DNA from: an uncultured Nocardia sp.
GTDB lineage: Bacteria; Actinomycetota; Actinomycetes; Mycobacteriales; Mycobacteriaceae
Reading direction: 5' to 3'
DNA length: 64,000 nucleotides
Assembly (NCBI GenBank): GCA_966435935.1
Contig: CBJNFW010000003.1
Coordinates: 24,224 to 88,223, forward strand
The stretch's first letter is position 1; each line of letters begins with the position of its first letter. Positions 4,797-21,005 of this stretch are shown one piece after another. Below the pieces are notes generated by a model that was given only the letters and a program-made list of their open reading frames with translations, made no database searches and was not told the origin of the DNA. Position numbers and translations under genes: made by a program.

Positions 4797-4825
4797 GAAG
4801 CGGAACGGAGGCCAGGATTACTGCC
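4797..4825. repeat. interspersed short element, copy F
   Basis: Minus-sense GGCAGTAATCCTGGCCTCCGTTCCGCTTC. The TAA stop of the ROK gene (4820-4818) lies inside it. Alignable with the copies at 28144-28200, 41254-41284, 42652-42682 and 30648-30683. Confidence 0.55.
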
Positions 4826-6074
4826 TGGTGGCGCGGCGCATGGCCGAGATGGGGTCGGCGTAGAAGACGCTCAGCGAGGTGACCGCGGCGGCGTGTTCCT
4901 GGACGCGGCCGCCGAAGCGGCTGATGCGCAGGTCGGCGGGCGGGAGATTGGTGTTCTCGGCGAATGCCTGTGCTACCCGGTCGACTCCGGGGCGGTAGCC
5001 GGTGAATGCCTGGCCGCCCAGCACAACTCGGTCCGGGTTGAACATGTCGCGGATGAGAGCCGCTGTGCGCCCGAGGATTTCGGCGCGCTCGTCGAGCATC
5101 GCACGCGCGGCGTCCGAGCCGGAATCCGCGGCGCGGTACAGGTCCGCGATCACCGGGCGGCGGGGAGCCTCGCGGCGGGGCACGATTCCGGCGCGCACCG
5201 CGCGGCCCAGGATCGCGGCCTCACCGACCGTGGCCTCCAAGCAGCCGCGACGTCCGCAGGCGCATTCGATATCGGAACCGGTGGGCAGGTGCGCGATGGA
5301 ACCGGGCCCGCTGGCGGGAGTGTGCACCCGATCGTGCAGGGTGACCGCGACGCCGGCGGTCTCCCGCGCGTAGATGTACAGACTGCTGCCCGGACGCTGC
5401 TGTTCACCGGGCGCGAGCAGCAACTCCGCCGCGGCCATCGCCTCCACGTGCGCGGATATCGAGACCGGCAGGTCGAGCACGGTGGCGAACACCGCGGCAA
5501 CGGGCGCGGCCTGCCAGCCCAGACGCGGATGATCGACCACCCCGGCGGCCGGATCGACTCGTCCGGCCAGCGCGACGCCGGTCCACAGCGGGCGACGGCG
5601 CGGCAGCCGATCCAGGAACGCCTTGGCGCTGCGGGCGATGATGGTCAGCGCGGCGTCCTGGCCGACCTGCGGCGTGGCGATCTCCAGTCCGCCGAGGATG
5701 CGGCCGGACAGATCCGCGGCGATGATCCGGGTCACCGTGGCCCCGATGTGCACGCCCAGCGTGGCGAAGGTGTCGGTATCGACCTCGAACGGGATGCGCG
5801 GGCGTCCGACCGCCCCCGACGCGGTCAGATCGGCGCGCTCGCGCAGCAGTCCCGTCGAAAGCAGCGCGGACACTTGGCGATTCACCGTCGCGATGCTGGA
5901 ACCCGTTGTCTGCGCGGCGGAATCGCGAAAGATCGGGCCGCGCGTGGCGGCACGCAGAACGGCGGCGGCGGGGTTGTCGGAGATGCGCAGTTCCGGCGGT
6001 ACCGCGGGACGCGCGGATACGACCCGGACGGGCGCGGTAGTGGTCGACGGTCGCTCGATGGTGGGGATCGTCAT
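4818..6074 (-). CDS. ROK family transcriptional regulator
   Basis: N-terminal wHTH (SIATVNRQVSALLSTGLLRE) followed by a ROK sugar-kinase-like fold with the CxCGxxGC zinc motif (CACGRRGCLE). ATG 6074 has an AAGGA RBS. Confidence 0.85.
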   Translation of the reverse strand: MTIPTIERPSTTTAPVRVVSARPAVPPELRISDNPAAAVLRAATRGPIFRDSAAQTTGSSIATVNRQVSALLSTGLLRERADLTASGAVGRPRIPFEVDTDTFATLGVHIGATVTRIIAADLSGRILGGLEIATPQVGQDAALTIIARSAKAFLDRLPRRRPLWTGVALAGRVDPAAGVVDHPRLGWQAAPVAAVFATVLDLPVSISAHVEAMAAAELLLAPGEQQRPGSSLYIYARETAGVAVTLHDRVHTPASGPGSIAHLPTGSDIECACGRRGCLEATVGEAAILGRAVRAGIVPRREAPRRPVIADLYRAADSGSDAARAMLDERAEILGRTAALIRDMFNPDRVVLGGQAFTGYRPGVDRVAQAFAENTNLPPADLRISRFGGRVQEHAAAVTSLSVFYADPISAMRRATRQ

Positions 6075-6331
6075 TTCGAAATCCTTGTTGAAAGCCCGCG
6101 CGGGGCTGTATTCGGCAACGACAACAAGGCAGTGAGAAGGGCCCGGACAGAACGCGACCGGCCGTCACGAACGAGCAGGAGCGGTTCTCAGCTGCGCGGC
6201 CGAGAGCAACACAGCTCCCGCTGCCGCGGCAGCCGCACACCGAGCGCAACGGTCACGTAGGTGACCTCAGCGGCATTCGATCGGCTGGAGAACATGGTTG
6301 AGAACGTTATCATCCCAGGTGTGGTGGACGC

Positions 6332-6379
6332 CAGACCAAGTGGTCTGCATGCATTCCGCTCAACGAGATTCGAATCTCG
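6332..6379. promoter_or_regulatory. cluster of three palindromes (candidate GntR/HutC or ROK operators)
   Basis: CAGACCAAGTGGTCTG (6332-6347, 7/8 arms, AGACCA/TGGTCT half-sites like HutC-family sites), TGCATGCA (6347-6354) and the perfect 16-mer CGAGATTCGAATCTCG (6364-6379), all inside the 483-bp ROK/GntR divergent region. Confidence 0.35.
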
Positions 6380-6557
6380 CGGCCCGGTTGCCGGGGTGGC
6401 GCAATGGCCGAAATCACTCCCGTTTCGGCAGGCCGCCGCGATCGATGTGCGGCGCATTACCCGAAGGCGCACGCACCCGTCCCGAACATCGGCCCGGGAT
6501 CGCGGCGATATCCCATTACTCTCGGAAACCGCTGGTCACAGGCGGAAGGAGGATGAG

Positions 6558-7325
6558 TTGACGCCGCAACCGACGCCACTGCGCACCCCTGCCCGCCGAG
6601 CCGATCGCGCCCGTCAGGTCGCCGATGTACTGCGCCAGCAGATTCACGCGCAGACCTTCGCGCACACCTTGCCCAGCGAGAGCGAGCTCGCCGCCGAATT
6701 CGCGGTCTCACGCAACACCGTGCGCGACGCCCTCGCACTGCTCAAGGACGAGGGCCTCATCGAACGCGCGCCGAAGGTGGGCACCCATATCGCGCAGCGC
6801 AAGTACGAGCACGGGCTGGACGCGTTGCGCGGCCTGAAGGAGACCCTGCGCGGCCACGGCGAGGTCCGCAACGAGGTGCGCGTGGTCTCCCGGGTGACTC
6901 CGCCACCGGCCGTGGCACGCCGATTGGACCTGGGTCCGGGCGAGCAGGCGGTGTACATCGAGCGGCTGCGCTATCTCGGCGACCTGCCGCTGAGTCTGGA
7001 CCTGACCTATCTCGCGCCCGATATCGGCTCCGAGGTGATCACCCGGGACCTGGAGACCAACGACGTATTCGCCCTCATCGAGGAGATCAGCGGCGGCCCA
7101 TTGGGTTCGGCCGATCTGGTGCTCGAGGCGATCACCGCGGACCCGCACTCCGCGGCCGCCCTGCAGATGCCCGAGGGCGGCGCACTGCTGCTCCTGGAAC
7201 GACTGACCCGGCTCGACGACGGCCGCCCGGTGGACCTCGAGTACATCCGGCTGCGCGGCGACCGAATCACCATGCGCGGCAGCCTCGTCCGGCCCGCGGA
7301 AAGCAGCGATTGGAGGCTGATCTGA
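6558..7325 (+). CDS. GntR family transcriptional regulator, HutC/UTRA subfamily
   Basis: wHTH LPSESELAAEFAVSRNTVRDALALLKDEGLIERAPKVGTHI plus a UTRA-type C-terminal domain. Start set at in-frame TTG 6558, preceded by GGAAGGAGG; the track start at 6261 would add ~100 non-family residues. Confidence 0.8.
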   Translation: MTPQPTPLRTPARRADRARQVADVLRQQIHAQTFAHTLPSESELAAEFAVSRNTVRDALALLKDEGLIERAPKVGTHIAQRKYEHGLDALRGLKETLRGHGEVRNEVRVVSRVTPPPAVARRLDLGPGEQAVYIERLRYLGDLPLSLDLTYLAPDIGSEVITRDLETNDVFALIEEISGGPLGSADLVLEAITADPHSAAALQMPEGGALLLLERLTRLDDGRPVDLEYIRLRGDRITMRGSLVRPAESSDWRLI

Positions 7326-7553
7326 ATGGCCCTGGTGAACCAGCGCGCCGACGTCCCGGTGACCATCGACGAATCCCTGTGTATCGAGGGGTGCACACTC
7401 TGCGTCGAGATATGTCCGCTCGATTCGCTGGCGATCAACCCGGACAACGGCAAGGCGTTCATGCACGTGGACGAGTGTTGGTACTGCGGCCCGTGCGCGG
7501 CCCGCTGCCCCACCGGCGCCGTCACCGTCAACATGCCCTTCCTGCTGCGCTGA
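7326..7553 (+). CDS. 2x[4Fe-4S] ferredoxin, AprB-like (lacks the AprB C-terminal tail)
   Basis: Two cluster motifs, CIEGCTLCVEICP and CWYCGPCAARCP. The spacer INPDNGKAFMHVDE resembles the N-terminal domain of the APS reductase beta subunit as I remember it. The ATG directly abuts the GntR stop. Confidence 0.75.
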   Translation: MALVNQRADVPVTIDESLCIEGCTLCVEICPLDSLAINPDNGKAFMHVDECWYCGPCAARCPTGAVTVNMPFLLR

Positions 7554-7602
7554 TTCGCGCACCGAGATCGCCGTCGCGCGAACAGTATTCCGAGGAATTT
7601 CG

Positions 7603-9030
7603 ATGAAATATCGTCCTGCCCGCGTCATCGCGGGTTTGTCCGCCATGGCTCTGATCGCCGCCGGCTGCTCACTCGAGTCCGCCTCGTCCGGGAATACCGT
7701 CCGGGTCGTGGTGGGCTACCAATCCAAGACCATCAATACCGTCACCGCCGGAACATTACTGCGGGCCAAGGGCTTTCTCGAACAGCGGCTGGCGAAGCTG
7801 ACCGCCGCGGGCGGCCCGAAATATCAGGTCGAATGGCAGGATTACGACACCGGTGCGCCGATCACCGCGCAGATGGTCGCGGAGAAGATCGATATCGGCT
7901 CGATGGGCGACTACCCGTTGCTGATCAACGGTTCACGCACCCAGGTGAGTGAACAATCCCGCACCGAATTGGTGTCGGTCACCGGATACCAGCCCAAGGG
8001 CTCGCTCAATATGGTTGTGGTGCCGCCGAATTCGCCGATCGAGTCGTTGCGGGACCTGGCCGGGAAGAAGGTGTCCGCGAGTGTCGGATCGGCCGGTGAC
8101 GGCACGTTGCGCCAGGCACTCACCCGGGCGGGCATCGATCCGAAATCCGGTGTGCAGATCCTGAACCAGCAGCCGCAGATCGGGGCTTCGGCCCTGGATT
8201 CCGGCCAGGTGCAGGCGCTTTCGCAGTTCGTCGCGTGGCCCGGACTGCTGGTCTTCCAGAACAAGGCGCAATTGCTGTACGACGGCGCGGAATTGAATGT
8301 GCCCACCTTCCACGGCGTCGTCGCGCGACGGGATTACGCGAAACAGCATCCCGAGGTGCTCGACGCGTTCTTGCAGGCACAGCTGGATGCCACCGATTTC
8401 CTGCACGCGAAGCCGCTCGAATCCGCCGAAACAGTGGCGCACGACACCGGGCTGCCGGCCGAGGTGGTGTACCTCTACAACGGTCCCGGCGGCACCTCCT
8501 TCGATACTCCGCTGAAAACACCGCTGATCCAGGCGTTGCAGGGTGATATCCCCTATCTGAAGTCGATCGGCGATTTCGCGGACCTGGACGTGAACGGATT
8601 CGTCGACGACGCGCCACTGCGAAAGGCATTCGGCGAGCGCGGTATCGACTACGACAAGGCGGTCGCGAACTTCGCCGATCCCGCGCCGATCACCGGCACC
8701 GATCCAGTGGCGAATCGTCCGGTCACCGATCCCGCGCTGGCCGGGGAGATCTGGTTCGACGGTCAGGAGGCGACCCAGCCCGCGGCCGATCCGACCGCTC
8801 TGCTGCGCGCGGTGAAAGCGGCTCGGGCACAGGGGCGGAAGGTTCGCGAGGCCTACGTTCCCGATGCCGAACTGGGCACGCGCTGGTTCGCCGACAAGGC
8901 CCTGTGGGTACGCGACGGGCAGACCTATCTGCCGTTCACCACATCGGCGGCGGTGCGGCGTTATCTGAGCGCGCATCCGGGCAGCGCGCAACTGTCCTAC
9001 GATCAGGCGATCGACGAGGTGCAGTCGTGA
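7603..9030 (+). CDS. ABC transporter substrate-binding lipoprotein, NitT/TauT (SsuA-like) family, with extra C-terminal domain
   Basis: Lipobox LIAAGC. Body resembles the aliphatic sulfonate/taurine binding-protein fold (VVVGYQSKTINTV..., GSMGDYPLL, VSASVGSAGD). At 475 aa it is ~130 aa longer than typical family members. Confidence 0.8.
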   Translation: MKYRPARVIAGLSAMALIAAGCSLESASSGNTVRVVVGYQSKTINTVTAGTLLRAKGFLEQRLAKLTAAGGPKYQVEWQDYDTGAPITAQMVAEKIDIGSMGDYPLLINGSRTQVSEQSRTELVSVTGYQPKGSLNMVVVPPNSPIESLRDLAGKKVSASVGSAGDGTLRQALTRAGIDPKSGVQILNQQPQIGASALDSGQVQALSQFVAWPGLLVFQNKAQLLYDGAELNVPTFHGVVARRDYAKQHPEVLDAFLQAQLDATDFLHAKPLESAETVAHDTGLPAEVVYLYNGPGGTSFDTPLKTPLIQALQGDIPYLKSIGDFADLDVNGFVDDAPLRKAFGERGIDYDKAVANFADPAPITGTDPVANRPVTDPALAGEIWFDGQEATQPAADPTALLRAVKAARAQGRKVREAYVPDAELGTRWFADKALWVRDGQTYLPFTTSAAVRRYLSAHPGSAQLSYDQAIDEVQS

Positions 9031-9929
9031 ACGCCCCGGTCTCCACTCGTATCGACTCGGATGCAGCGGCGCCAGCGGTCATCCCGGCGTCACCGGCCGC
9101 GGCCACGCGCGAATCCGTCGCAAGCACAACGGGTCCGGGCGAACGCGCCCGGGTGTGGCGTTCGCGGGCGATCCGGACGGCGTCCGTAATCGCGGTCGTC
9201 CTGGCATGGCAGTTGTTGACCGCCAATCACATTCGCCTGTGGGTGCGATTCGACACCCTGCCGACGGTCACGCAGATCGTGCGCGCCTTCGGACATCAGC
9301 TCGGGACCACGACGTACTGGCTGGACCTCGGGCAGTCGGTGATCCGGATCCTGAGCGGATTCGTACTCGCGGCACTGGCGGGAGTGGCATCCGGTGTGGC
9401 CCTGGGACGTTCGCGGCTGTTCGCCGATATCTTCGGGCCGCTGACCGAACTGGCCCGGCCCATACCGGCGATCGCGATCGTGCCGGTGGCCATTCTGCTG
9501 TTCCCCACCGACGAGGCCGGGATCGTGTTCATCACCTTCCTGGCCGCGTATTTCCCGATCATGGTCAGCACTCGGCACGCGGTGCGGGCGCTGCCGGTGA
9601 TCTGGGAGGATTCGGTGCGCACCCTCGGCGGCAGCCGCTGGGACGTGCTGGCGCGAGTCGTGCTGCCCGGCAGTCTGCCTGGGGTGTTCGGCGGGTTGTC
9701 GGTGGGTATCGGCGTGGCCTGGATCTGCGTGGTGTCGGCCGAAATGATCTCGGGCCGGCTGGGTGTGGGATATCGGACCTGGCAGGCGTACACGATCGTG
9801 GACTATCCGGGCGTGTTCGTCGGCATCATCACCATCGGGGTGCTGGGCTTCGCGACATCGGCGGCGGTCGAGCTGCTGGGACGCCGGGCCACCGCATGGC
9901 TTCCCCGGGCGGGAGCGGAGACGAAATGA
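9027..9929 (+). CDS. ABC transporter permease (SsuC/TauC-like)
   Basis: Six predicted TM segments and an EAA-like loop (TRHAVRALPVIWEDSVRTLGGSRWDVLARVVLPG). Start at GTG 9027 overlapping the SBP stop (GTGA). Confidence 0.85.
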   Translation: MNAPVSTRIDSDAAAPAVIPASPAAATRESVASTTGPGERARVWRSRAIRTASVIAVVLAWQLLTANHIRLWVRFDTLPTVTQIVRAFGHQLGTTTYWLDLGQSVIRILSGFVLAALAGVASGVALGRSRLFADIFGPLTELARPIPAIAIVPVAILLFPTDEAGIVFITFLAAYFPIMVSTRHAVRALPVIWEDSVRTLGGSRWDVLARVVLPGSLPGVFGGLSVGIGVAWICVVSAEMISGRLGVGYRTWQAYTIVDYPGVFVGIITIGVLGFATSAAVELLGRRATAWLPRAGAETK

Positions 9930-10696
9930 GCGAGTCCCGTGGTACCGCAATGAATCTCCGGCTGGATAGGGTCGAGCTGCGCTATTCCGGAACACCGGTG
10001 ATCAGCGAGCTGACGCTGGATATCCGGCCGGGCGAGATTCTCGTGCTGACCGGCCCGTCGGGCTGCGGTAAATCGACCGTCCTGCGCGCGCTGGCCGGAC
10101 TGCTGCCCGCACGTTCGGGCCGCGTCCTGGCCGACGGCGAACTCGTCACCGGGCCGTCGCGCGATCGCGCGATGGTTTTCCAGGACAACGCGTTACTGCC
10201 GTGGCGCACGGTTCGCTCGAATATCGAACTGGCCCTGCGGCTGCGCGGTGAGCCACGCGCCGGGCGGCGCACGCGGGCCGAACGATGGATCGACGAGGTC
10301 GGCCTGACCGGATTCGGGAAATACCTGCCCAAGGATCTGTCCGGCGGTATGCGCCAACGTGTCCAGCTCGCCCGCGGCCTGGCCGGTGCGCCCCGCGCGG
10401 TGCTGATGGACGAACCGTTCGGTGCGCTGGACGCACCCACCCGGGCCACCATGCAGCGTCTGCTCGTGGACACCTGGCGGGCGCACCCGACCACGGTCGT
10501 CTTCGTCACGCACGATGTCGACGAGGCGCTGCTGCTGGGTGATCGGATCGCCGTACTCGACCGCGCCGCCCTTCCGGTGCGCGCGCTGCTGGACATTCCG
10601 CGGCCCCGCGATCCGGACGTCGACCGCGCCGCGCTGCGCGCCGAAATCCTTGCCGCCCTGGATCGTTCGGATGATCCGGTCCCGGCTCACCGCTGA
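9926..10696 (+). CDS. ABC transporter ATP-binding protein (SsuB/TauB-like)
   Basis: Walker A GPSGCGKST, signature LSGGMRQRV, Walker B VLMDEPFGALD. ATG 9926 overlaps the permease stop (ATGA). Confidence 0.9.
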   Translation: MSESRGTAMNLRLDRVELRYSGTPVISELTLDIRPGEILVLTGPSGCGKSTVLRALAGLLPARSGRVLADGELVTGPSRDRAMVFQDNALLPWRTVRSNIELALRLRGEPRAGRRTRAERWIDEVGLTGFGKYLPKDLSGGMRQRVQLARGLAGAPRAVLMDEPFGALDAPTRATMQRLLVDTWRAHPTTVVFVTHDVDEALLLGDRIAVLDRAALPVRALLDIPRPRDPDVDRAALRAEILAALDRSDDPVPAHR

Positions 10697-10720
10697 CCAC
10701 CGCCACTTGGAGCACCGCTG

Positions 10721-13417
10721 ATGAAGATTCCCGACCTGGCCGATACCGTCCGGCTCGACTGCGATGTGCTGGTGATCGGCGGCGGCACCGCCGGAACCAT
10801 GGCCGCGCTCACCGCGGCCGAGAACGGCGCGAACGTGCTGCTGCTGGAGAAGGCGCACGTGCGGCATTCCGGCGCGCTGGCGATGGGGATGGACGGGGTC
10901 AACAATGCCGTGGTCCCCGGTAAGGCCGAACCGGAGGACTACGTCGCCGAGATCACCCGCGCCAACGATGGAATCGTCAACCAGCGCACCATCTATCAGA
11001 CCGCCACCCGCGGCTTCGCGATGGTGCAGCGGCTCGAGCGGTACGGGGTGAAGTTCGAGAAGGACGCCTACGGCGAATACGCGGTGCGCCGGGTGCATCG
11101 CTCCGGCTCGTACGTGCTGCCGATGCCCGAGGGCAAGGACGTCAAGAAGGCCCTGTATCGCGTTCTGCGACAACGCAAGATGCGCGAGAAGATCCGGATC
11201 GAGAATCGGCTGATGCCGGTGCGCGTGCTCACCGACGGCGGCCGCGCGGTCGGTGCGGCCGCGTTGAACACGCGCACCGGCGAATTCGTCGCCGTCGGCG
11301 CGAAGGCGGTGATCCTGGCGACCGGGCCGTGCGGGCGGCTCGGCCTGCCCGCGTCGGGATATCTGTACGGCACGTACGAGAATCCGACCAACGCCGGGGA
11401 CGGGTATTCGATGGCCTACCACGCGGGCGCGGAGCTCTCGGGCATCGAATGTTTCCAGATCAACCCGCTGATCAAGGATTACAACGGTCCGGCCTGCGCC
11501 TACGTCGCCAATCCGTTCGGCGGCTACCAGGTCAATGCCGCCGGTGAGCGGTTCGTCGACTCGGACTACTGGTCCGGGCAGATGATGAGCGAGGTCAAGC
11601 ACGAGATCGAATCCGCCCGGGGCCCGATCTATCTGAAGGTTTCCCATCTGCCCGACGAGACGCTCACCGCGCTGGAGGGGATCCTGCACACCACCGAGCG
11701 GCCCACCCGCGGCACCTTCCACGCCAATCGCGGTCACGACTACCGGACCCATGACATCGAGATGCACATCTCCGAGATCGGCTTGTGCAGTGGGCATTCC
11801 GCCTCGGGCGTCTGGGTGGACGAGCACGCTCGCACGACCGTGCCGGGGCTCTACGCGGCTGGAGACCTGGCCTGCGTACCGCACAATTACATGATCGGCG
11901 CCTTCGTCTACGGCGATCTGGCCGGTGAACACGCCGCGAGCACCCGCGCGGATATCGCGGCGCCGCGGGAACTTCCGGCCGATCAGCTGGCCGAGGCGCA
12001 CGAACTGATGTACCGCCCGCTGCGCGATCCGGACGGGCCGCCGCAGCAGCAGGTGGAGTACAAACTCCGCCGCTTCGTGAACGACTATGTGGCACCGCCG
12101 AAGACGGCGACGAAACTGTCCCTGGCGATCGAGACGTTCGAGCGGATGAGCCGCGAGATCGCGGAGATGGGCGCGACCACGCCGCACGAGCTGATGCGTT
12201 GCGCGGAAGTGAGTTTCATCCGCGACTGCGCCGAGATGGCGGCCCGTTCCTCGCTGACCCGCACCGAATCCCGTTGGGGCCTCTACCATGAGCGCGCCGA
12301 TCTGCCCGAGCGCGACGACGAGCAGTGGCACTATCACCTGAACCTGCGCAAGGGCGCGGACGGGACGATGGAATTCCTGAAACGCCCGGTCGCGCCGTAT
12401 TTCGTGCCGGTGCCCGAACTCGCCGGACGATCGAGCGCATCCGAGGCCCCCGAACTCGTCGCCCAACCCGGCCTGATCACCGGTCCGCCGCGCACGGCCG
12501 CGGCCGGCCCGGGCGTCGCGCGAACACGGACCGCCACGGCCGATGTAGACGCCGCCGACGAGGTCGCGCCCGCGATCGCGCGGTTGCTCGGCCTGGACGC
12601 GCCGAGCCTGGCCGACCTGTATCCCTACCTCGCCGATGCCGACCCGCGCGTGCGCGCCACCGCGGTGTCGGTCCTGACCGAGGGCACGCCGGACGGTTTC
12701 GCCGACGCGTTGATCGCCGCCCTCGCCGATCCGGCCGCCGCGGTCCGCGCCGCCGCTCTGGCCGGACTCCGTGAGCTGGTCGAAATCCTGCCTGCCACAA
12801 CGGGTCTGGCCGCACATGCGGAATCACCCGATCCGCTCGTGCGGGCCGGTGTGGTGGATCTGCTGCGTGCGCTGCGGGCGGGTTCGGCCGAACTGTTCAG
12901 CAAGGCCGTCGTGGACGACGATCACCGCGTGCGGATCGAAGGGGTGCGCGCCCTGGTCTCGATCGACGACTGGACCGCGCTGACCACCGCCGCACACGAC
13001 GAGAACCGCGAGGTTCGCATCACCGCCGCGCAGGGGCTGGCCACCGTCGGACAGGGCGGCGCGGACACCGTGCGCGAGCTGACCGCCGACCGCGATCCGC
13101 TGGTCCGCGCCGCGGCCCTCACCGCTCTGTCCCGGCTCGGCTCCCCGGCCGACGCACCCGTGCTCACCACCGCCCTCGCCGATTCGGCCTGGCAGATCCG
13201 TGCGGGCGCGGTCCGCGGCTGGACCGCCCTCGGACCCGACCTCGCCGCGGGCCCACTGCATACCGCCCTGTCGGACCCGCATCCCGACGTCCGCAAGGCC
13301 GCGGTTCTGACCCTGGGCCTGTGGCCCGAGCACGCCGGCGCCCGCGACGCGCTGCGGCAGGCCGTCGACGATTCCGACGCCGACGTCCGGGCGTACGCGC
13401 GTCGGGCGCTGGGTTGA
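10721..13417 (+). CDS. AprA-like FAD flavoprotein fused to a C-terminal HEAT-repeat domain
   Basis: N-terminal ~590 aa: DVLVIGGGTAGTMAAL, SGALAMGMDGVNNAV, GDGYSMAYHAGAEL, FQINPLIKDYNGPACAY (APS reductase alpha / fumarate-reductase flavoprotein superfamily). C-terminal ~280 aa: nine ~31-aa repeats of the D..p.VR..A...L type. GGAG RBS at 10709. Confidence 0.8.
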   Translation: MKIPDLADTVRLDCDVLVIGGGTAGTMAALTAAENGANVLLLEKAHVRHSGALAMGMDGVNNAVVPGKAEPEDYVAEITRANDGIVNQRTIYQTATRGFAMVQRLERYGVKFEKDAYGEYAVRRVHRSGSYVLPMPEGKDVKKALYRVLRQRKMREKIRIENRLMPVRVLTDGGRAVGAAALNTRTGEFVAVGAKAVILATGPCGRLGLPASGYLYGTYENPTNAGDGYSMAYHAGAELSGIECFQINPLIKDYNGPACAYVANPFGGYQVNAAGERFVDSDYWSGQMMSEVKHEIESARGPIYLKVSHLPDETLTALEGILHTTERPTRGTFHANRGHDYRTHDIEMHISEIGLCSGHSASGVWVDEHARTTVPGLYAAGDLACVPHNYMIGAFVYGDLAGEHAASTRADIAAPRELPADQLAEAHELMYRPLRDPDGPPQQQVEYKLRRFVNDYVAPPKTATKLSLAIETFERMSREIAEMGATTPHELMRCAEVSFIRDCAEMAARSSLTRTESRWGLYHERADLPERDDEQWHYHLNLRKGADGTMEFLKRPVAPYFVPVPELAGRSSASEAPELVAQPGLITGPPRTAAAGPGVARTRTATADVDAADEVAPAIARLLGLDAPSLADLYPYLADADPRVRATAVSVLTEGTPDGFADALIAALADPAAAVRAAALAGLRELVEILPATTGLAAHAESPDPLVRAGVVDLLRALRAGSAELFSKAVVDDDHRVRIEGVRALVSIDDWTALTTAAHDENREVRITAAQGLATVGQGGADTVRELTADRDPLVRAAALTALSRLGSPADAPVLTTALADSAWQIRAGAVRGWTALGPDLAAGPLHTALSDPHPDVRKAAVLTLGLWPEHAGARDALRQAVDDSDADVRAYARRALG

Positions 13418-13515
13418 GCGAGCATCCGCACACGCCGCCGATCACAGAGTGACCACAGAAATCCGGGATACGCTCCGACGCACATCCATTCACCAGCCGC
13501 GCTAGGAGCGTCCCC

Positions 13516-14739
13516 ATGATCCGGAATCCGCACCGTATCCGCCGCGGCGCTGCCGCCCTGGCCGTGGCCGGCGTCGGGCTGGGGGCCGCATTGGCCCCGT
13601 CGGCCGCCGCGGCACCGCTGCCCAGCATGCCGGTGGGCGCGCTGAGCTACACCGTCGATGTGAACCAGCCCGGCGCGAGCCCGGGATACATCTACTACAC
13701 GAGCGGGGTCAGTGCCGCGGCACTGGTGCCCGGGTTGGGGCAGGCGCTGTCGATCATTCCGCAGGCCGCGCCCGCCAATGTGGTGATGGACAAAGCCGGG
13801 CACGAGGTGTGGCGATACACCCCGCCCAAGGGTCAGGACGTGTCGAACTTCCGGACGCAGACCTACCAGGGCAAGCGGGTGCTGACCTGGTGGCAGGGCA
13901 GCACCGTCGGCGGGCACGGCACGGGCACCGACTACATCGCCGACGAACACGGCCACGTCATCGAAACCCTCGGTGCCGGAGACGGTTCCGGTTCCGATGT
14001 GCACGAGTTCCGGCTGACGCCGGACGGCCGCGCGCTGATCACCTCCTACCGGGAGGTCGGCGCGGACCTGAGCGCGATCGGCGGACCGAAGAACGGCCGG
14101 ATGTACGACACCGTCGCCTCGGTGGTCGATGTCGCCAGCAAGAAGGTGCTGTTCCAGTGGAGTGCCGCCCAGCACGTGCCGCTCACCGATACCACCGCTG
14201 GCACCTCGTCACCCGGTTCCGCGGTCTACGACCCGTACCACATGAATTCGATCGCGCTCGACCCGCAAGGGAATCTGGTGATCTCGATGCGCGACACCTC
14301 CGCGGTGTACGACGTCGACATCCACACCGGGAAGATCCGCTGGCAGCTCGGCGGTAAGCATTCCACCCTGGCCATGGGCCCCGGAGTGCAGTTCGCCTTC
14401 CAGCACGACGCCGAATTCGACGGGCCCGATACGATCCGGCTGTTCAACGACAATTCCAGCGGTCAGCAGACGTTGGGTGTGTCGAGTGTGCAGTGGATCC
14501 ATATCGATACCGCTGCGCACCGGGCGACGTTGGTGCGCAACCAGACTCACCCGAGCAACCTGGTCGCGATGGCGATGGGTAACGCCCAGGGCCTGCCGGG
14601 CGGCAACACGCTGGTGGGCTGGGGTATGGCTCCGCACATCTCGGAGTTCACCCCGTCGGGCGCGCTGGTCTACGACGCCGCGTTGCCGATGGGCACGTAC
14701 CGCGCGTACCTGGAGGATTGGGCGCCCAGCGCGAAATAG
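13516..14739 (+). CDS. secreted aryl-sulfotransferase (ASST) family protein
   Basis: Signal peptide with RIRRGAAALAVAG (Tat-like). Beta-propeller ASST-type segments (GSDVHEFRLTPDGRALIT, YDPYHMNSIALDPQGNLVIS, FQHDAEF). AGGAG RBS at 13504. Confidence 0.8.
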   Translation: MIRNPHRIRRGAAALAVAGVGLGAALAPSAAAAPLPSMPVGALSYTVDVNQPGASPGYIYYTSGVSAAALVPGLGQALSIIPQAAPANVVMDKAGHEVWRYTPPKGQDVSNFRTQTYQGKRVLTWWQGSTVGGHGTGTDYIADEHGHVIETLGAGDGSGSDVHEFRLTPDGRALITSYREVGADLSAIGGPKNGRMYDTVASVVDVASKKVLFQWSAAQHVPLTDTTAGTSSPGSAVYDPYHMNSIALDPQGNLVISMRDTSAVYDVDIHTGKIRWQLGGKHSTLAMGPGVQFAFQHDAEFDGPDTIRLFNDNSSGQQTLGVSSVQWIHIDTAAHRATLVRNQTHPSNLVAMAMGNAQGLPGGNTLVGWGMAPHISEFTPSGALVYDAALPMGTYRAYLEDWAPSAK

Positions 14740-15017
14740 GTTCTCGCGCAGGCACTCTTGCCGTGCGTCAGCGATGTCCGGCAGGCGGCCTCGCCCGCCG
14801 GACCGGCGCTGGCTGCGAATCCCGCTGGGCGGCAGCGTATCGCGGGAACGCTGGATCCAGCGGACGCGATCATCGTCGGCGGAGGGCCACGACGCCAGGA
14901 GCAGCGGCCGCGCTTACCCCGGCTGATCACCGGGCGATCGCCGCAACCCCCATCGGCGGACGCCCGATACCATCGATTGCCGAACAGCCGCCGAACGAAT
15001 TGTCGCGAATTCGGCGG

Positions 15018-16166
15018 TCAGGCCGCGCGCACGTGCGAGAGCCCCCATTCCTGCGCGAGTAGGCGGTGCGAGGCGAGCCGGTCCTCGTGCCGGTGGGTGA
15101 CGCTGGTGATCACCAGTTCGTCCGCGCCGGTGAGCTGTTGCAGTGCGCTCAGGCGGGCGGTCACCTCGGCGGGCGTGCCGACGAACTGTGTGGTGATCCG
15201 GTCCCGCACCAGGCGTTGCTGCTGCTCGGACAGCGGCTCGGCGGTATCGGGGTCCTGATAGTCGGCCGCACCCGCCCCACTGCGAATGCTGTACACCCAG
15301 TGGCCGTAGGTGGAGGCGAGATGTTCGGCCTTCGCGTGCTCCTCCGCCACGACGACGTCCGCGGACACCACCAGATACGGCTTCGGGTACCGCGCCGACG
15401 GCCGGAATGATTCCCGGTACGCCGCAACGGTTTCCAGAATCGTGCCCGGAGAGACATGGTAATTCGCCGCGAACGGCAGCCCCAGACGTCCGGCGAGCCT
15501 GGCGCTCTCACCGCCGCTGCTGCCGAACAGCCACAGTTCGATCTGCGCGTCCTCACCCGGAACCGCGTGCAGGACAACGCCTTCGTCGGACCGGTACCCG
15601 TCGTCGAGGAAGGCGCGGATCTGCTCGACCTGCTCGGTGTAGTCCAGCGGCCGGGCACCGGGCAGCGTCAGTACCTGCAGGCCGGCCTGTAGACGAGCAG
15701 TGTTCAGCAACTGCCCGGGGCTGAACGGAGGCGGGATCACCACACCGTCCCGGACCTCGATCGGCCGCTCGGGGGTGCGGACCGGCGGAACACCGGCCGA
15801 GCGGATCTGATCGGCACGGTGACCCGAGCGCCCCAAGCCCAGATCGAGGCGTCCCGGATACAGCGCGTCGATCGTCCCGAACCCTTCCACCACCGAGGCG
15901 GAGGTGTGATGCCCCAGCTGCACCGCCGCCGACCCCACTCGGATCGTCTCGGTGGCCGCCGCGATCAGCCCGATCAACGTCACCGGCGACGAACTCGCCA
16001 CCCGCACGAAATGGTGCTCCGCCACCCAGAACCGCCGATACCCCCAGCTCTCGGCCCGCTGCGCCAGCTCGATGGTATTCCGGATCGCCTGGCGCGGTGT
16101 GGATCCCGCGCTGACCGGGGACAGATCCAGCACCGACAACGGGACGCGCCCGCCCGAGATCGTCAC
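15018..16166 (-). CDS. LLM class flavin-dependent oxidoreductase (luciferase-like monooxygenase)
   Basis: LSVLDLSPV...GYRRFWVAEHH...IRVGSAAVQLGHH...GRLDLGLGRS signature of luciferase-like monooxygenases. GTG start overlaps the DUF1684 stop (GTGA). Confidence 0.85.
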   Translation of the reverse strand: MTISGGRVPLSVLDLSPVSAGSTPRQAIRNTIELAQRAESWGYRRFWVAEHHFVRVASSSPVTLIGLIAAATETIRVGSAAVQLGHHTSASVVEGFGTIDALYPGRLDLGLGRSGHRADQIRSAGVPPVRTPERPIEVRDGVVIPPPFSPGQLLNTARLQAGLQVLTLPGARPLDYTEQVEQIRAFLDDGYRSDEGVVLHAVPGEDAQIELWLFGSSGGESARLAGRLGLPFAANYHVSPGTILETVAAYRESFRPSARYPKPYLVVSADVVVAEEHAKAEHLASTYGHWVYSIRSGAGAADYQDPDTAEPLSEQQQRLVRDRITTQFVGTPAEVTARLSALQQLTGADELVITSVTHRHEDRLASHRLLAQEWGLSHVRAA

Positions 16167-18606: not shown

Positions 18607-18610
18607 TCCC

Positions 18611-19639: not shown

Positions 19640-19678
19640 ACCCGCACCTCGAGCCATACCACCCACTCGCGAACCCGG

Positions 19679-20695: not shown

Positions 20696-21005
20696 CGAAT
20701 CCCCCTGCGATACGGCAGTTTCGGGGACCACCCCAGGGCACACTCGACACGCGGCCCGCGTTCGACTCGCCGAAAGCGACTCGAAGTCGCGCGCCGGACG
20801 CCGGAGGCCGGAAAGCCCAGGCCCGGCACGGCTGTGGCACCATTGCCCAACTCCCGAACCATTTCCTCGGGGCCGGACCAACTTACGGCCCGCATGCGCA
20901 TCATGCCCGAACGGCTCGCGCGGCGCGATACTTCCGCGCATCCGAACAGCGACTCATAATCCGTTCGCACGCAGTGGCGTCCACTATCTACCCGGCTCCC
21001 GTAGT

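What the first reader, a model, noticed from the sequence alone, without database searches (positions are those of the whole stretch)
6558..14739. APS-reductase-like AprB/AprA pair split around a sulfonate-type ABC importer in a GntR-led operon, followed by a secreted aryl-sulfotransferase
Seen in sequence: the first six genes share one strand with tight junctions, and the seventh follows a 98-nt gap.
- The GntR stop (7323-7325) abuts the ferredoxin ATG at 7326.
- SBP and permease overlap (GTGA, 9027-9030).
- Permease and ATPase overlap (ATGA, 9926-9929).
- A 24-nt gap with a GGAG RBS precedes the flavoprotein gene.
- The 98-nt gap precedes the ASST gene.

The 75-aa ferredoxin (CVEICPLDSLAINPDNGKAFMHVDECWYCGPCAARCPTGAVT) resembles, from memory, the two-cluster N-terminal domain of dissimilatory AprB, but it lacks the AprB C-terminal tail. 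The first ~590 aa of the 898-aa flavoprotein carry AprA-type segments (GGGTAG, SGALAMGMDGVNNAV, GDGYSMAYHAGAEL, FQINPLIKDYNGPACAY).

Established knowledge: AprBA works through an FAD-N5-sulfite adduct. It is normally linked to sat/qmo/aprM in sulfate reducers and sulfur oxidisers. Aerobic actinomycetes assimilate sulfate with CysH-type enzymes.

Inference: the two subunits are separated by a TauT/SsuABC-like importer and sit in a region full of sulfur-starvation enzymes. This pair could therefore be a flavin-sulfite-adduct enzyme acting on an imported organosulfonate, a sulfate ester product, or sulfite. I do not know of such a module having been characterised.
Basis: partly seen in the sequence, partly recalled or inferred. 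Interest (0 to 1): 0.8.

Follow-up and report, generated by a model that had tools for sequence, protein, structure and literature searches.

The report
AprBA-like flavoenzyme operon with sulfonate-type importer
A Nocardia operon pairs a sulfonate-type importer with a two-subunit iron-sulfur flavoenzyme whose closest solved relative is an archaeal APS-reductase-type PAPS reductase; the same module occurs in several bacterial phyla, I found no study of it, and it may release sulfite from an imported organosulfur compound by reduction.

Summary
All seven genes and every junction are as described.

**What the pair is**
- The 898-aa flavoprotein is a full-length member of NCBIfam NF010374 (PRK13800).
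- Its closest solved relative, by sequence and by fold, is the alpha subunit of the APS-reductase-type PAPS reductase of Methanothermococcus (8A8O). AprA comes next, and SdhA/FrdA/NadB after that.
- In an NJ tree its clade plus an anaerobe sister clade groups with AprA/PAPSR (97/100).
- It is not an APS or PAPS reductase. AprA models score far below cutoff, and the residues that hold APS (Tyr95, Trp234, Arg265) are replaced by other residues that never vary within the clade.
- It is not the published AsfAB arylsulfonate system, which is a 24-30% identical paralogue.

**The module elsewhere**
- The "split" gene order is only the actinobacterial arrangement of a module found across phyla: flavoprotein, ferredoxin, HEAT protein, usually a ~475-aa SsuA-like ABC importer and a regulator.
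- TauE/SafE sulfite exporter genes (three lineages) or FdxA with a reductase gene (two lineages) sometimes lie beside it.
- The sulfotransferase gene is a neighbour only in some Nocardia.

**Reading**
The best reading is ferredoxin-driven reductive release of sulfite from an imported sulfo compound. This is inferred, and the substrate is unknown. I found no characterisation of this clade.

The parts
6364..6409 (.). Conserved non-coding stretch upstream of the GntR gene. It holds a perfect 16-nt palindrome, CGAGATTCGAATCTCG (6364-6379), and an invariant block, GGTGGCGCAATGGCC (6395-6409). It is a candidate operator or promoter element.
   Evidence: The palindrome was found. The GATTC.AAT core and the TGGCGCA block are conserved in N. 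jiangxiensis, N. nova, R. opacus and Tsukamurella. There is no Rfam match and no convincing covariation. Its function was not tested.
6558..7325 (+). GntR/HutC-family regulator (255 aa; winged-helix domain plus UTRA effector domain). It is the first gene of the operon.
   Evidence: Pfam GntR 2.6e-17 and UTRA 4.9e-31. TTG start with a GGAGGA RBS. The same regulator type leads the module in Actinobacteria and in beta-, gamma-proteobacteria and Acidithiobacillia.
7326..7553 (+). 75-aa 2x[4Fe-4S] ferredoxin, the AprB-like beta subunit without the C-terminal tail. The cluster motifs are C19-x3-C23-x2-C26-x3-C30-P and C51-W-Y-C54-x2-C57-x3-C61-P.
   Evidence: Pfam Fer4_7 and related models. All eight Cys and Trp52 are invariant in six orthologues from three phyla. 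Among stand-alone partner subunits the best PDB matches are AprB 3gyx_B (1.8e-10), PAPSR-beta 8a8o_C (7.4e-8) and AprB 1jnr_B (1.2e-7). TIGR02060 aprB scores 29.5 bits against a cutoff of 135.65.
7603..9030 (+). Lipoprotein substrate-binding protein (475 aa) of a NitT/TauT-type ABC importer. It has an SsuA/TauA-like core plus a ~150-aa C-terminal extension.
   Evidence: NMT1 5.6e-16. TIGR01728 SsuA_fam 133.8 bits, below the 163.5 cutoff. The best PDB matches are E. coli SsuA 2x26 (5.8e-16), TauA 6ssy and SsuA 3uif. The N-terminus reads ...LIAAGC, which I read as a lipobox in the translation. A ~470-480-aa SBP accompanies the module in most phyla.
9027..9929 (+). ABC permease (about 300 aa).
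   Evidence: BPD_transp_1 1e-19. It resembles TauC, SsuC and NtrB, all below cutoff. It overlaps the SBP gene at GTGA.
9926..10696 (+). ABC ATPase (256 aa).
   Evidence: ABC_tran 1.4e-29. The best NCBIfam hit is the taurine ABC ATPase model, 215 bits against a cutoff of 357. It overlaps the permease gene at ATGA.
10721..12490 (+). Catalytic part (residues 1-590) of the 898-aa flavoprotein. This is the AprA/PAPSR-like alpha subunit, with FAD-binding, capping and helical domains.
   Evidence: NF010374/PRK13800 1682 bits (cutoff 1196) and NF006131/PRK08275 869 bits (cutoff 587). The AprA models are below cutoff: 266 against 557, and 131 against 642. PDB: 8a8o_A 5.5e-55, 1jnr_A 8.5e-30, SdhA 1.2e-23. 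AF2 model mean pLDDT 83. Foldseek: 8a8o_A TM 0.88, AprA 0.75-0.77. Clade support in the NJ tree 100/100.
12545..13417 (+). C-terminal HEAT-repeat domain (residues ~609-898) fused to the flavoprotein through a disordered linker. It is a separate ~320-330-aa gene outside Actinobacteria.
   Evidence: HEAT_2 3.2e-30. It is all-helical with pLDDT above 90, and the linker 589-611 has pLDDT below 50. Separate HEAT genes sit next to the pair in Cupriavidus, Acinetobacter, Ralstonia, rhizobia, cyanobacteria and A. caldus.
13516..14739 (+). Secreted aryl-sulfotransferase-like protein (407 aa; I read RRGAAAL as a Tat-like signal). It is a lineage-specific neighbour and not part of the conserved module.
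   Evidence: Arylsulfotran_2 2.4e-47 and Arylsulfotrans 2.8e-11. Best PDB match 9kf4_A 'Sulfotransferase', 5.9e-53. It occupies the same position in N. jiangxiensis and N. nova, but is absent in N. cyriacigeorgica, R. opacus and Tsukamurella.

Best explanation
Genes 6558-13417 form one operon for uptake and cytoplasmic processing of a single small organosulfur compound.

**Shown**
- The genes are a GntR/HutC regulator, an SsuA/TauA-like lipoprotein ABC importer, and a two-subunit iron-sulfur flavoenzyme.
- The alpha subunit is the 898-aa flavoprotein. The beta subunit is the 75-aa 2x[4Fe-4S] ferredoxin.
- The enzyme belongs to a tightly conserved clade (NCBIfam PRK13800/PRK08275). Together with an anaerobe sister clade, this clade is the sister group of the AprA/PAPS-reductase clade.

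**Inferred**
- The small ferredoxin sits on the flavoprotein as AprB does, with its invariant Trp52 next to the FAD.
- Electrons come from NAD(P)H through a ferredoxin reductase and a soluble ferredoxin.
- The reduced FAD attacks the sulfur of the imported R-X-SO3(-) compound (a sulfonate, sulfate ester or sulfamate). An N5-sulfite adduct forms and decays to sulfite and R-XH, as in AprBA and MtPAPSR.
- The sulfite is assimilated, or exported by TauE/SafE where that gene is present.
- The HEAT domain, together with DUF971 or Mrp proteins in other phyla, probably serves as a scaffold or Fe-S maturation factor.

**What it is not**
- The substrate is not APS or PAPS.
- The enzyme is not AsfAB.

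The downstream sulfotransferase gene is a Nocardia-specific add-on. It may widen the range of usable aryl sulfates.
For: **Operon structure**
- Start and stop codons abut or overlap, and no internal terminator is predicted.
- The same six genes occur in the same order in R. opacus, three other Nocardia species and Tsukamurella.

**AprBA-type ancestry**
- 8a8o_A is the best match by sequence (E 5.5e-55) and by fold (TM 0.88).
- By HMM score, the AprA-type model NF005331 (266 bits) ranks above TfrA (157), SdhA/FrdA (152), NadB (124) and TcuA (65).
- In the NJ tree, the window clade plus its sister clade plus AprA/PAPSR group together in 97/100 bootstraps, excluding AsfA and other relatives.
- FAD is predicted to be non-covalent: Gly occupies the SdhA His position.
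- AprA Asn74, the His of CSGHSASG and the RGPIYL motif are retained.
- The ferredoxin has eight invariant Cys and an invariant CW(Y/F)C Trp, and it matches AprB and PAPSR-beta.

**Sulfur link**
- The SBP is closest to SsuA and TauA.
- A TauE/SafE sulfite exporter gene lies adjacent in Leptolyngbya, Pseudanabaena and Aquabacterium.
- Sulfonate SBP genes flank the gene in Nostoc.
- An NtaA/DmoA monooxygenase gene and an SsuA gene lie next to the module in Cupriavidus.
- CysNC lies nearby in N. cyriacigeorgica.
- SfnG, SfnB and LLM genes are present in the window.

**Reductive direction**
- FdxA plus ferredoxin-NADP reductase are encoded in the Methylobacterium locus.
- FdxA plus a 1153-aa FAD oxidoreductase are encoded in the A. 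caldus locus.

**Precedent**
- MtPAPSR uses the AprA N5 mechanism for assimilation.
- AprAB-like complexes in anaerobes lie next to sulfur-assimilation genes and nitT/tauT transporter genes.
Against: - The Arg that contacts the sulfo group in AprA (Arg265, kept in MtPAPSR) is Leu or Ile in the invariant motif FQINPLIKDYNGPACAYV. Tyr95 is replaced by Glu, and Trp234-Tyr235 by Tyr-Glu. The N5-sulfite chemistry is therefore not guaranteed.
- The sister clade (about 39% identity) sits with GltD-like partners, Tct or TRAP carboxylate transporters and CoA ligases, which is not an obviously sulfur-related setting.
- Roughly 8 of the 20 loci read show no sulfur gene within ~8 kb. Examples are R. opacus, Tsukamurella, Ralstonia, Mesorhizobium, Bradyrhizobium and Methylocystis.
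- Ralstonia, Mesorhizobium and A. caldus lack the importer beside the pair.
- GNAT and amidase genes lie nearby in Nostoc and Methylocystis, which hints at a nitrogen-containing substrate.
- No expression, binding or activity data exist.
- Subunit contact was not modelled.
- The AF2 model has low confidence in the capping-domain loops.
Confidence: 0.45

Rival explanations
1. The enzyme does classical fumarate-reductase or L-aspartate-oxidase chemistry: hydride transfer at a C-C or C-N bond. Its substrate would be an imported acid, sulfonated (for example cysteate, 3-sulfopropanoate or sulfosuccinate) or not sulfonated at all. Any sulfite would be released later by another enzyme, or never.
For: - The protein belongs to the FRD/SDH/NadB superfamily.
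- The segment ECFQINPL has the same spacing as the SdhA motif MEFVQFHPT, as I recall that motif, when compared with the alignment.
- The AprA sulfo-binding Arg265 is missing.
- The sister clade is associated with carboxylate transporters, CoA ligases and an NAD(P)H-linked GltD-like partner.
- GNAT, amidase and aminotransferase genes lie nearby in some loci.
Against: - The His/Arg residues that bind dicarboxylates in FRD/SDH (the HPT His and the Arg of HGANRLG) are also absent. That region reads PHNYMIGAF, like AprA PHKFSSGSF.
- The nearest characterised relatives by sequence, fold and tree are AprA and PAPSR.
- TauE/SafE genes lie directly adjacent in three lineages.
- The SBP is SsuA/TauA-like.
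Confidence: 0.25
2. The flavoprotein and ferredoxin form only an electron-transfer chain. They would supply reducing power to a separate desulfonating oxygenase, such as SsuD, SfnG or another LLM-type enzyme. This is the role proposed for AsfA/AsfB in arylsulfonate use.
For: - The gene content has the same logic as asfABC: an FRD-family flavoprotein, a small 2x[4Fe-4S] ferredoxin and an SsuA-like SBP.
- Many LLM monooxygenase genes lie in the window.
- One database entry names the R. wratislaviensis orthologue 'Putative reductase (alkanesulfonate metabolism)'.
Against: - Primer-defined AsfA is only 24-30% identical. It scores 76 bits on NF006131 (cutoff 587) and forms a separate clade (99/100) outside the AprA + window group.
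- AsfB lacks the CWYC Trp.
- Other Nocardia species carry their own asfAB elsewhere.
- No oxygenase gene is conserved beside the module across phyla.
- Where extra redox genes occur, they are donors (FdxA with FNR), which implies that the flavoenzyme is the terminal acceptor.
- The capping-domain motifs are invariant across phyla, which points to a substrate pocket that is in use.
Confidence: 0.12
3. It is a genuine APS or PAPS reductase that acts in sulfate assimilation alongside CysH.
For: - The best solved relative is MtPAPSR.
- CysNC lies about 3.5 kb upstream in N. cyriacigeorgica.
Against: - TIGR02061 scores 131 bits against 642, and NF005331 scores 266 against 557.
- Arg265, Tyr95, Trp234 and Glu141/Gln145 are not conserved. 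The PAPS loop Lys120-Arg121-Ser122 is His-Arg-Ser in the window, and only the His is invariant in the clade.
- No sat, qmo or aprM gene was found among the window genes I scanned.
- A dedicated SsuA-like importer would be pointless for an intracellular nucleotide.
Confidence: 0.03

Closest known systems
APS-reductase-type PAPS reductase of Methanothermococcus thermolithotrophicus (MtPAPSR, PDB 8A8O; Jespersen et al. 2023, PMC10322725), and the 'AprAB-like' complexes of anaerobes (Neukirchen & Sousa 2021, PMC8477390)
   Same: - A two-subunit architecture: an FRD-family FAD alpha subunit plus a short 2x[4Fe-4S] beta subunit without the long AprB tail.
- The best sequence match (E 5.5e-55, residues 8-556 against 2-550) and the best fold match (TM 0.88).
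- An assimilatory rather than respiratory setting.
- nitT/tauT-type ABC genes are reported near the anaerobe versions.
- The Asn74, His398 and RGP-x-YL equivalents are retained, and the ferredoxin carries the Trp.
   Different: - Only about 26-32% identical.
- NF005331 scores below cutoff.
- The catalytic Arg (AprA Arg265), Tyr95 and Trp206/Tyr207 of MtPAPSR are replaced by invariant Leu/Ile, Glu and Tyr/Glu.
- The PAPS 3'-phosphate loop is not conserved.
- The beta subunit is 75 aa against 104 aa.
- A HEAT-repeat partner or domain, a DUF971 or Mrp partner and a dedicated SsuA-like importer are present.
- The hosts are aerobic Actinobacteria, Proteobacteria and Cyanobacteria, often with the module on plasmids or chromids.
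- No sat or APS kinase linkage.
Dissimilatory APS reductase AprBA (A. fulgidus 1JNR/2FJA; D. gigas 3GYX)
   Same: - The same superfamily and domain order.
- Predicted non-covalent FAD.
- The PH-x-(F/Y) segment after the AAGD motif.
- The ferredoxin-domain match to AprB, including the CWxC Trp (the AprB motif is recalled from memory).
- The window clade plus its sister clade groups with the AprA clade in 97/100 NJ bootstraps.
   Different: - TIGR02061 scores 131 bits against 642, and TIGR02060 scores 29.5 against 135.65.
- The AprA insertions (643 aa against about 570 aa) and the AprB tail are absent.
- The APS-binding residues are not conserved.
- No sat, qmo or aprM context.
AsfA/AsfB(/AsfC) arylsulfonate desulfonation system of Pseudomonas putida S-313 and rhizosphere bacteria (Vermeij et al. 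1999, as summarised in PMC4267179)
   Same: - The same gene logic: an FRD-family flavoprotein, a small 2x[4Fe-4S] ferredoxin and an SsuA-like binding protein or ABC transporter.
- The sulfur-scavenging context.
- Also present in Rhodococcus and Nocardia.
   Different: - A distant paralogue: 24-30% identity, 76 bits on NF006131, and a separate clade.
- The published asfA and asfB primers do not fit the window genes. The forward primer matches with 3 mismatches at LSGIEC, and the reverse primer has no site.
- AsfB reads CQTCFMCE, whereas the window ferredoxin reads CWYCGPCA.
- A LysR regulator, no HEAT partner, and an SBP of about 325-335 aa.
SsuABC / TauABC sulfonate importers (NitT/TauT family)
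   Same: - The SBP core is closest to E. coli SsuA (2X26) and TauA.
- The permease and ATPase are closest to TauC/SsuC and TauB.
   Different: - All components score below the equivalog cutoffs.
- The SBP carries a conserved ~150-aa C-terminal extension (475 aa against about 320 aa).
- The ligand is unknown.

Membership tests
NCBIfam NF010374 (PRK13800) / NF006131 (PRK08275): uncharacterised 'fumarate reductase/succinate dehydrogenase flavoprotein subunit' equivalogs | A whole-protein HMM score above the curated cutoff. | tested here: met
   NF010374 scores 1682.3 bits (cutoff 1196), covering residues 1-897 of 898. NF006131 scores 869.2 bits (cutoff 587), covering residues 9-566.
Dissimilatory APS reductase AprBA | The alpha subunit scores above the AprA model cutoffs. 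| tested here: not met
   TIGR02061 scores 130.7 bits against 641.75. NF005331 scores 265.8 against 557.
Dissimilatory APS reductase AprBA | The APS-binding and catalytic residues are present. The A. fulgidus numbering (Asn74, Tyr95, Trp234, Arg265, His398) is recalled from Fritz 2002 and Schiffer 2006, and was mapped through the HMMER and MAFFT alignments. | tested here: not met
   Asn74 and the His of CSGHSASG are kept. Tyr95 is replaced by Glu, Trp234 by Tyr, and Arg265 by Leu or Ile. All of these replacements are invariant in the clade.
Dissimilatory APS reductase AprBA | The beta subunit has two [4Fe-4S] clusters and a long C-terminal tail that wraps around AprA. | tested here: not met
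   Eight Cys are present, but the protein ends 14 residues after the last Cys (75 aa against 150-166 aa). TIGR02060 scores 29.5 bits against 135.65.
Dissimilatory APS reductase AprBA | Genomic linkage to sat, qmoABC or aprM. | tested here: not met
   None was found among the 27 window genes scanned, nor in any related locus. The only nearby item is CysNC in N. cyriacigeorgica. The window beyond about 36 kb was not scanned.
AprA-type PAPS reductase (MtPAPSR) | The 3'-phosphate-binding loop Lys120-Arg121-Ser122, plus retained AprA catalytic residues (PMC10322725). | tested here: not met
   The loop aligns to His-Arg-Ser in the window and to His-His-Met or His-Arg-Val in other clade members, and the alignment is ambiguous here. 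The catalytic Arg is absent.
AprA-type PAPS reductase (MtPAPSR) | Enzyme activity with PAPS or APS. | not testable with these tools
   This needs the purified alpha-beta complex and a methyl-viologen-coupled assay.
AsfA/AsfB arylsulfonate system | Orthology to the asfA-asfB genes as defined by the published marker primers. | tested here: not met
   - About 65 genomic loci carry both primer sites 1.05-1.15 kb apart.
- Their flavoproteins are 24-30% identical to the window protein.
- They score 76.5 bits on NF006131.
- They form a separate clade in 99/100 bootstraps.
- The window has only a 3-mismatch forward site and no reverse site.
SsuABC/TauABC sulfonate ABC importer | The components score above the equivalog or subfamily cutoffs. 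| tested here: not met
   - SBP: 133.8 bits against 163.5 (TIGR01728).
- Permease: 109.7 against 342 (TauC).
- ATPase: 215.4 against 357 (TauB).
- The fold family is nevertheless supported by the PDB matches to SsuA and TauA.
Aryl-sulfate sulfotransferase (ASST) | A Pfam ASST domain above the gathering score. | tested here: met
   PF14269 scores 162.3 bits (cutoff 27) and PF05935 scores 43.5 bits (cutoff 24.2). PDB 9kf4_A 'Sulfotransferase' matches at 5.9e-53. Catalytic residues and activity were not tested.
GntR/HutC subfamily regulators | An N-terminal GntR winged helix plus a C-terminal UTRA domain. | tested here: met
   PF00392 scores 62.6 bits and PF07702 scores 107.9 bits. No equivalog (HutC, PhnF and others) reaches its cutoff.

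The most novel reading that the evidence does not exclude
The PRK13800/PRK08275 clade would be a previously unrecognised class of oxygen-independent, ferredoxin-dependent "sulfo-group reductases" derived from the APS reductase lineage. These enzymes would let aerobic soil, plant-associated, clinical and cyanobacterial bacteria release sulfite from an imported sulfonate, sulfate ester or sulfamate through a flavin N5-sulfite adduct. A remodelled active site would do this without the AprA Arg, and a dedicated HEAT-repeat partner would assist.
Probability: 0.35. Interest if true: 0.8.

Novelty: new variant of a known kind. Interest (0 to 1): 0.62.

Why it matters
[quoted passage not shown] AprBA-type flavin-sulfite chemistry is known only for APS, and recently for PAPS, and mostly in anaerobes.

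Here a sister lineage of AprA/PAPSR has its own invariant active site, a HEAT partner and a private sulfonate-type importer. It is spread by plasmids and chromids through Nocardia, Rhodococcus, Burkholderiaceae, rhizobia, Acinetobacter baumannii, Acidithiobacillus and cyanobacteria.

If it reductively cleaves a sulfo compound, it would add a new reaction type to the organosulfur cycle. It would also assign a function to two widely propagated but uninformative annotations ([quoted passage not shown] and "HEAT repeat domain-containing protein"). The question is directly testable in tractable hosts.

The work also shows that similarity to the soil marker gene asfA is not evidence of orthology for these proteins.

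Tried and rejected
1. **AsfAB orthology, a lead from memory.**
   - I took the published primers from PMC9694294 and searched the window and six loci of the window clade.
   - I then spent the single genome-contig scan on the forward primer.
   - The true asfA-asfB loci turned out to be distant paralogues, so the lead was rejected.

2. **A guess that representatives containing LTGMEF were AsfA.**
   - A tblastn of P0182 against plasmids found only the window clade, at 33% identity.
   - A homologue search with P0138 returned MAGs of anaerobic Thermodesulfobacteriota.
   - That search did not find AsfA, but it did define the sister clade.

3. **Literature searches for a characterised orthologue.**
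   - Seven full-text searches found none for this clade.
   - The Rhodococcus IGTS8 proteomics paper and the Gordonia transcriptome paper do not mention these genes in their main text.

4. **A riboswitch or leader RNA upstream of the GntR gene.**
   - There is no Rfam match.
   - RNAalifold gives a positive (unfavourable) covariation term.
   - I did not pursue this further.

5. **Pocket analysis on the AF2 model.**
   - I did not attempt it. The capping-domain loops (residues 52-58, 205-225, 250-260 and 320-340) have low confidence, and no cofactor or beta subunit could be modelled.

6. **DOHH-like di-iron HEAT enzyme.**
   - I rejected this by reading the sequence: the HEAT domain has no repeated His-Glu motifs.

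7. **NrtA/CmpA-like oxyanion binding protein, suggested by the 475-aa length.**
   - This is not supported. The PDB matches are SsuA and TauA.

Full report
**1. Observation**

The seven ORFs are on the + strand at the coordinates given. Reading the junctions directly confirms each detail:
- The GntR gene starts with TTG at 6558, behind GGAGGA.
- Its TGA at 7323-7325 abuts the ferredoxin ATG at 7326.
- The SBP and permease genes overlap at GTGA (9027-9030).
- The permease and ATPase genes overlap at ATGA (9926-9929).
- A 24-nt spacer containing GGAG precedes the flavoprotein ATG at 10721.
- A 98-nt gap precedes the sulfotransferase ATG at 13516.

No terminator-like site lies on the + strand within 6000-15100.

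Pfam and NCBIfam give these assignments:
- GntR + UTRA.
- A 2x[4Fe-4S] ferredoxin.
- An NMT1/SsuA-like binding protein.
- A BPD_transp_1 permease.
- A TauB-like ATPase.
- FAD_binding_2 + Succ_DH_flav_C + HEAT_2.
- Arylsulfotran_2.

The organism is a Nocardia; the flavoprotein is 94% identical to that of N. jiangxiensis. The window does hold sulfur-scavenging genes: SfnB, SfnG, an NtaA/DmoA-family monooxygenase, a second SfnB-like gene and two LLM oxidoreductases.

**2. What the flavoprotein and ferredoxin are**

The 898-aa protein matches NCBIfam NF010374 (PRK13800) end to end at 1682 bits (cutoff 1196). Its first ~566 residues match NF006131 (PRK08275) at 869 bits. Both models carry only a generic name.

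The AprA models come next, but far below their cutoffs: NF005331 at 266 bits against 557, and TIGR02061 at 131 against 642. TfrA, SdhA/FrdA, NadB and TcuA score lower still.

Against the PDB, the best sequence match is 8a8o_A, the alpha subunit of the APS-reductase-type PAPS reductase of Methanothermococcus thermolithotrophicus. The match has E 5.5e-55 and aligns residues 8-556 to 2-550. A. fulgidus AprA follows at 8.5e-30 and SdhA at 1e-23.

An AlphaFold2 model (mean pLDDT 83) gives the same order by fold. 8a8o_A has TM 0.88, AprA 0.75-0.77 and FrdA/SdhA 0.70-0.82.

The 75-aa ferredoxin has eight Cys in two motifs. Among single-domain partner subunits it matches AprB (3gyx_B, 1.8e-10), PAPSR-beta (7.4e-8) and AfAprB (1.2e-7). 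It ends 14 residues after the last Cys, so it has no AprB-type tail.

I built an NJ tree from the following sequences:
- the window protein;
- 12 orthologues from other phyla;
- 50%-identity cluster representatives from a full-library search;
- MtPAPSR;
- the N-terminal part of AfAprA;
- nine AsfA proteins.

The bootstrap results were:

| Grouping | Support (of 100) |
|---|---|
| Window clade | 100 |
| Window clade + sister clade (~39% identical) | 99 |
| AprA/PAPSR clade | 99 |
| Window + sister + AprA/PAPSR | 97 |

Caveats: the tree is NJ only, and it contains no SdhA, NadB or TcuA sequences. For those families I rely on the HMM and PDB scores.

**3. It is not an APS or PAPS reductase**

I mapped the A. 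fulgidus residues through the HMMER and MAFFT alignments. The residue numbering is recalled from the AprA structure papers. The alignment numbering reproduces Gln145 of AfAprA and Lys120/Arg121/Ser122 of MtPAPSR as quoted in PMC10322725.

| AprA residue or motif | In the window clade |
|---|---|
| Asn74 | retained |
| His of CSGHSASG | retained |
| RGPIYL motif | retained |
| Tyr95 | Glu (invariant EIT) |
| Trp234-Tyr235 | Tyr-Glu (invariant GTYENP) |
| Arg265 (kept in MtPAPSR) | Leu or Ile, inside the invariant FQINPLIKDYNGPACAYV |

The PAPS 3'-phosphate loop is not conserved. The clade therefore has its own strictly conserved capping-domain site. This argues for one specific substrate that is not a sulfonucleotide.

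FAD should be non-covalent, because Gly occupies the SdhA His position. The dicarboxylate-binding His and Arg residues of FRD/SDH are also absent; the sequence PHNYMIGAF resembles AprA PHKFSSGSF.

**4. It is not AsfAB**

I recalled the asfRABC arylsulfonate locus, which has a flavoprotein, a ferredoxin and an SsuA-like SBP. The literature confirmed that description.

The published marker primers fit the window only weakly. The forward primer matches with three mismatches at the homologous LSGIEC codons, and the reverse primer has no site. They do not fit the window-clade genes of Variovorax, Cupriavidus, Ralstonia, Acinetobacter or Nostoc either.

A genome scan with the forward primer returned 120 loci. 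About 65 of them carry both primer sites 1.05-1.15 kb apart, including Pseudomonas, Paracidovorax, Cupriavidus, Rhodococcus and other Nocardia.

Their flavoproteins are 24-30% identical to the window protein and score 76 bits on NF006131. They form their own clade outside the AprA + window group. Their ferredoxin reads CQTCFMCE rather than CWYCGPCA.

AsfAB is therefore an analogue and a distant paralogue. It is not an orthologue.

**5. The module is conserved across phyla, and the "split" is a permutation**

Contexts read:

| Organism | Gene order or neighbours |
|---|---|
| Tsukamurella, R. opacus, N. cyriacigeorgica, N. jiangxiensis, N. nova | The same six genes in the same order as the window |
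| Cupriavidus pinatubonensis, Aquabacterium, Burkholderia sp. YI23, Acinetobacter baumannii | GntR - flavoprotein - ferredoxin - SBP (~470-475 aa) - permease - ATPase - separate HEAT protein (Acinetobacter adds DUF971) |
| Ralstonia | GntR - flavoprotein - ferredoxin - HEAT - DUF971, without the transporter |
| A. caldus | GntR - flavoprotein - ferredoxin - HEAT - FdxA - large FAD oxidoreductase, without the transporter |
| Rhizobia (Mesorhizobium, Bradyrhizobium), Methylobacterium | DUF971 - flavoprotein - ferredoxin - HEAT, with Crp/Fnr regulators; the ABC genes lie nearby except in Mesorhizobium |
| Methylocystis | Flavoprotein - ferredoxin - HEAT (no DUF971 or Crp/Fnr listed), with the ABC genes divergent upstream |
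| Cyanobacterial plasmids (Leptolyngbya, Pseudanabaena) | SBP - permease - ATPase, a LysR-NMT1 fusion regulator, then flavoprotein - ferredoxin - HEAT - Mrp/NBP35 |
| Nostoc plasmid | Sulfonate SBP - flavoprotein, then several other genes, then ferredoxin - HEAT - Mrp/NBP35 |

Identity between phyla is 55-64%. The Actinobacteria have simply fused the HEAT protein to the flavoprotein and moved the ferredoxin gene to the front.

The sulfotransferase gene follows only in the window, N. jiangxiensis and N. nova. It is a lineage-specific neighbour.

**6. Clues to function**

*Sulfur:*
- The binding protein is closest to E. coli SsuA, then TauA.
- A TauE/SafE sulfite exporter gene lies directly beside the module in Leptolyngbya, Pseudanabaena (both also with YeiH) and Aquabacterium.
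- Sulfonate SBP genes flank it in Nostoc.
- NtaA/DmoA, acyl-CoA-dehydrogenase-family and SsuA genes follow it in Cupriavidus.
- A TSUP transporter gene and chrA are nearby in Acinetobacter.
- CysNC is nearby in N. cyriacigeorgica.
- By my count, about 12 of the 20 loci read have a sulfur-related neighbour. I computed no background rate.

*Direction of the reaction:*
- Methylobacterium adds FdxA and ferredoxin-NADP reductase to the cluster.
- A. caldus adds FdxA and a 1153-aa FAD oxidoreductase.
- This points to electrons flowing into the enzyme.

*Maturation:*
- DUF971 (GBBH-like_N) and Mrp/NBP35 with an FeS_assembly_P domain suggest dedicated Fe-S handling. This is an inference.

*Against a sulfur role:*
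- The sister clade in anaerobe MAGs sits with a GltD-like Fer4_20/Pyr_redox_2 partner, Tct or TRAP carboxylate transporters and CoA ligases.
- Several loci show no sulfur gene at all.
- GNAT and amidase genes recur in Nostoc and Methylocystis.

**7. Most likely mechanism and rivals**

The best-supported reading (confidence about 0.45) has four steps:
1. The ABC system imports one small sulfo compound.
2. The ferredoxin subunit relays low-potential electrons to FAD through its invariant Trp52.
3. The reduced flavin cleaves the sulfo group as sulfite, by AprBA-type N5 chemistry in a remodelled pocket.
4. The GntR/HutC protein responds to the substrate or a product.

Shown: gene content, ancestry, conservation and neighbourhoods. 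Inferred: subunit contact, direction of the reaction, adduct chemistry and substrate class.

Rivals:
- FRD/NadB-type C-C or C-N redox chemistry on an imported, possibly sulfonated, acid (0.25).
- A pure electron-supply role for an oxygenase, as proposed for AsfAB (0.12).
- A true APS or PAPS reductase (0.03).

**8. Novelty and verdict**

Related knowledge exists:
- AprBA.
- MtPAPSR (PMC10322725).
- "AprAB-like" complexes in 63 anaerobes, proposed to act in sulfur assimilation (PMC8477390).
- AsfAB.

None of my searches found work on this aerobic HEAT-linked clade, although it is common enough to have two NCBIfam equivalog models.

I rate it a new variant of a known kind. The emphasis on the split gene order and on the sulfotransferase does not. 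Interest 0.62.

Noticed in passing
window 6364-6409: A perfect 16-nt palindrome, CGAGATTCGAATCTCG, and an invariant block, GGTGGCGCAATGGCC, lie about 150-190 nt upstream of the GntR start. They are conserved in N. jiangxiensis, N. nova, R. opacus and Tsukamurella. There is no Rfam hit and no covariation support for an RNA. The stretch is a possible operator for the GntR or for the divergent ROK regulator.
   Followed up: partly
window 4818-6074 (- strand): A ROK-family regulator gene is transcribed divergently from the operon. The same arrangement is kept in N. jiangxiensis and N. nova, but not in R. opacus or N. cyriacigeorgica.
   Followed up: no
window 28194-35037 (- strand): A sulfur-acquisition gene block: SfnB (474.7 bits, above cutoff), SfnG dimethylsulfone monooxygenase (627 bits), a StyA-like flavoprotein, an NtaA/DmoA-family monooxygenase and a second SfnB-like gene.
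   Followed up: partly
window 15018-23869 (- strand): An MsnO8-family LLM oxidoreductase, a DUF1684 protein, a fused double ABC ATPase, two peptide-type permeases, a second LLM monooxygenase and a further permease. This looks like another scavenging-type transporter/oxygenase cluster, directly downstream of the ASST gene.
   Followed up: no
L047, L060, L081 (other Nocardia spp.), L024/L039/L064 (Rhodococcus): True asfA-asfB loci, carrying both published primer sites, exist in Nocardia and Rhodococcus. In L047 asfA follows an SBP-ATPase-permease set, an NtaA/DmoA-like monooxygenase gene and a TauD-like gene. These genera can therefore carry both systems.
   Followed up: partly
genome scan loci L007-L126: The asfA forward primer encodes L-S-G-M-E-F, which resembles a motif shared across the FRD/SDH superfamily. 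Only about 65 of the 120 exact matches also carry the asfB reverse primer site (3 or fewer mismatches). The other matches lie in unrelated or other-family genes. This is a caution for using this marker alone.
   Followed up: partly
L135 6403-8439 and L137 6661-8676 (cyanobacterial plasmids): The regulator beside the module is a 670-680-aa fusion of a LysR regulator (HTH + LysR_substrate) with an NMT1/SsuA-like binding domain. This suggests that it senses the same ligand class that the transporter imports.
   Followed up: partly
L138, L139 (sister clade, anaerobe MAGs): The ~39%-identical sister flavoproteins are always followed by a ~535-aa Fer4_20/Pyr_redox_2 (GltD-like) protein instead of a small ferredoxin. 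They sit with GntR/UTRA or IclR regulators, Tct or TRAP-TAXI transporters and ADP-forming CoA ligase genes. This is another uncharacterised system.
   Followed up: partly
L001 14275-18561 (Tsukamurella plasmid): Downstream of the module lie genes for a nucleotidyltransferase, a ThiF-family adenylyltransferase, an MPN/JAB protein and a SAVED-domain protein. This is a CBASS-like anti-phage set. Qat anti-phage genes lie near the module in Methylobacterium (L142).
   Followed up: no
window 13516-14739: The best solved relative of the sulfotransferase-like protein is the recent PDB entry 9kf4/9kf6 'Sulfotransferase' (E 6e-53, residues 47-401). No NCBIfam model matches it.
   Followed up: no
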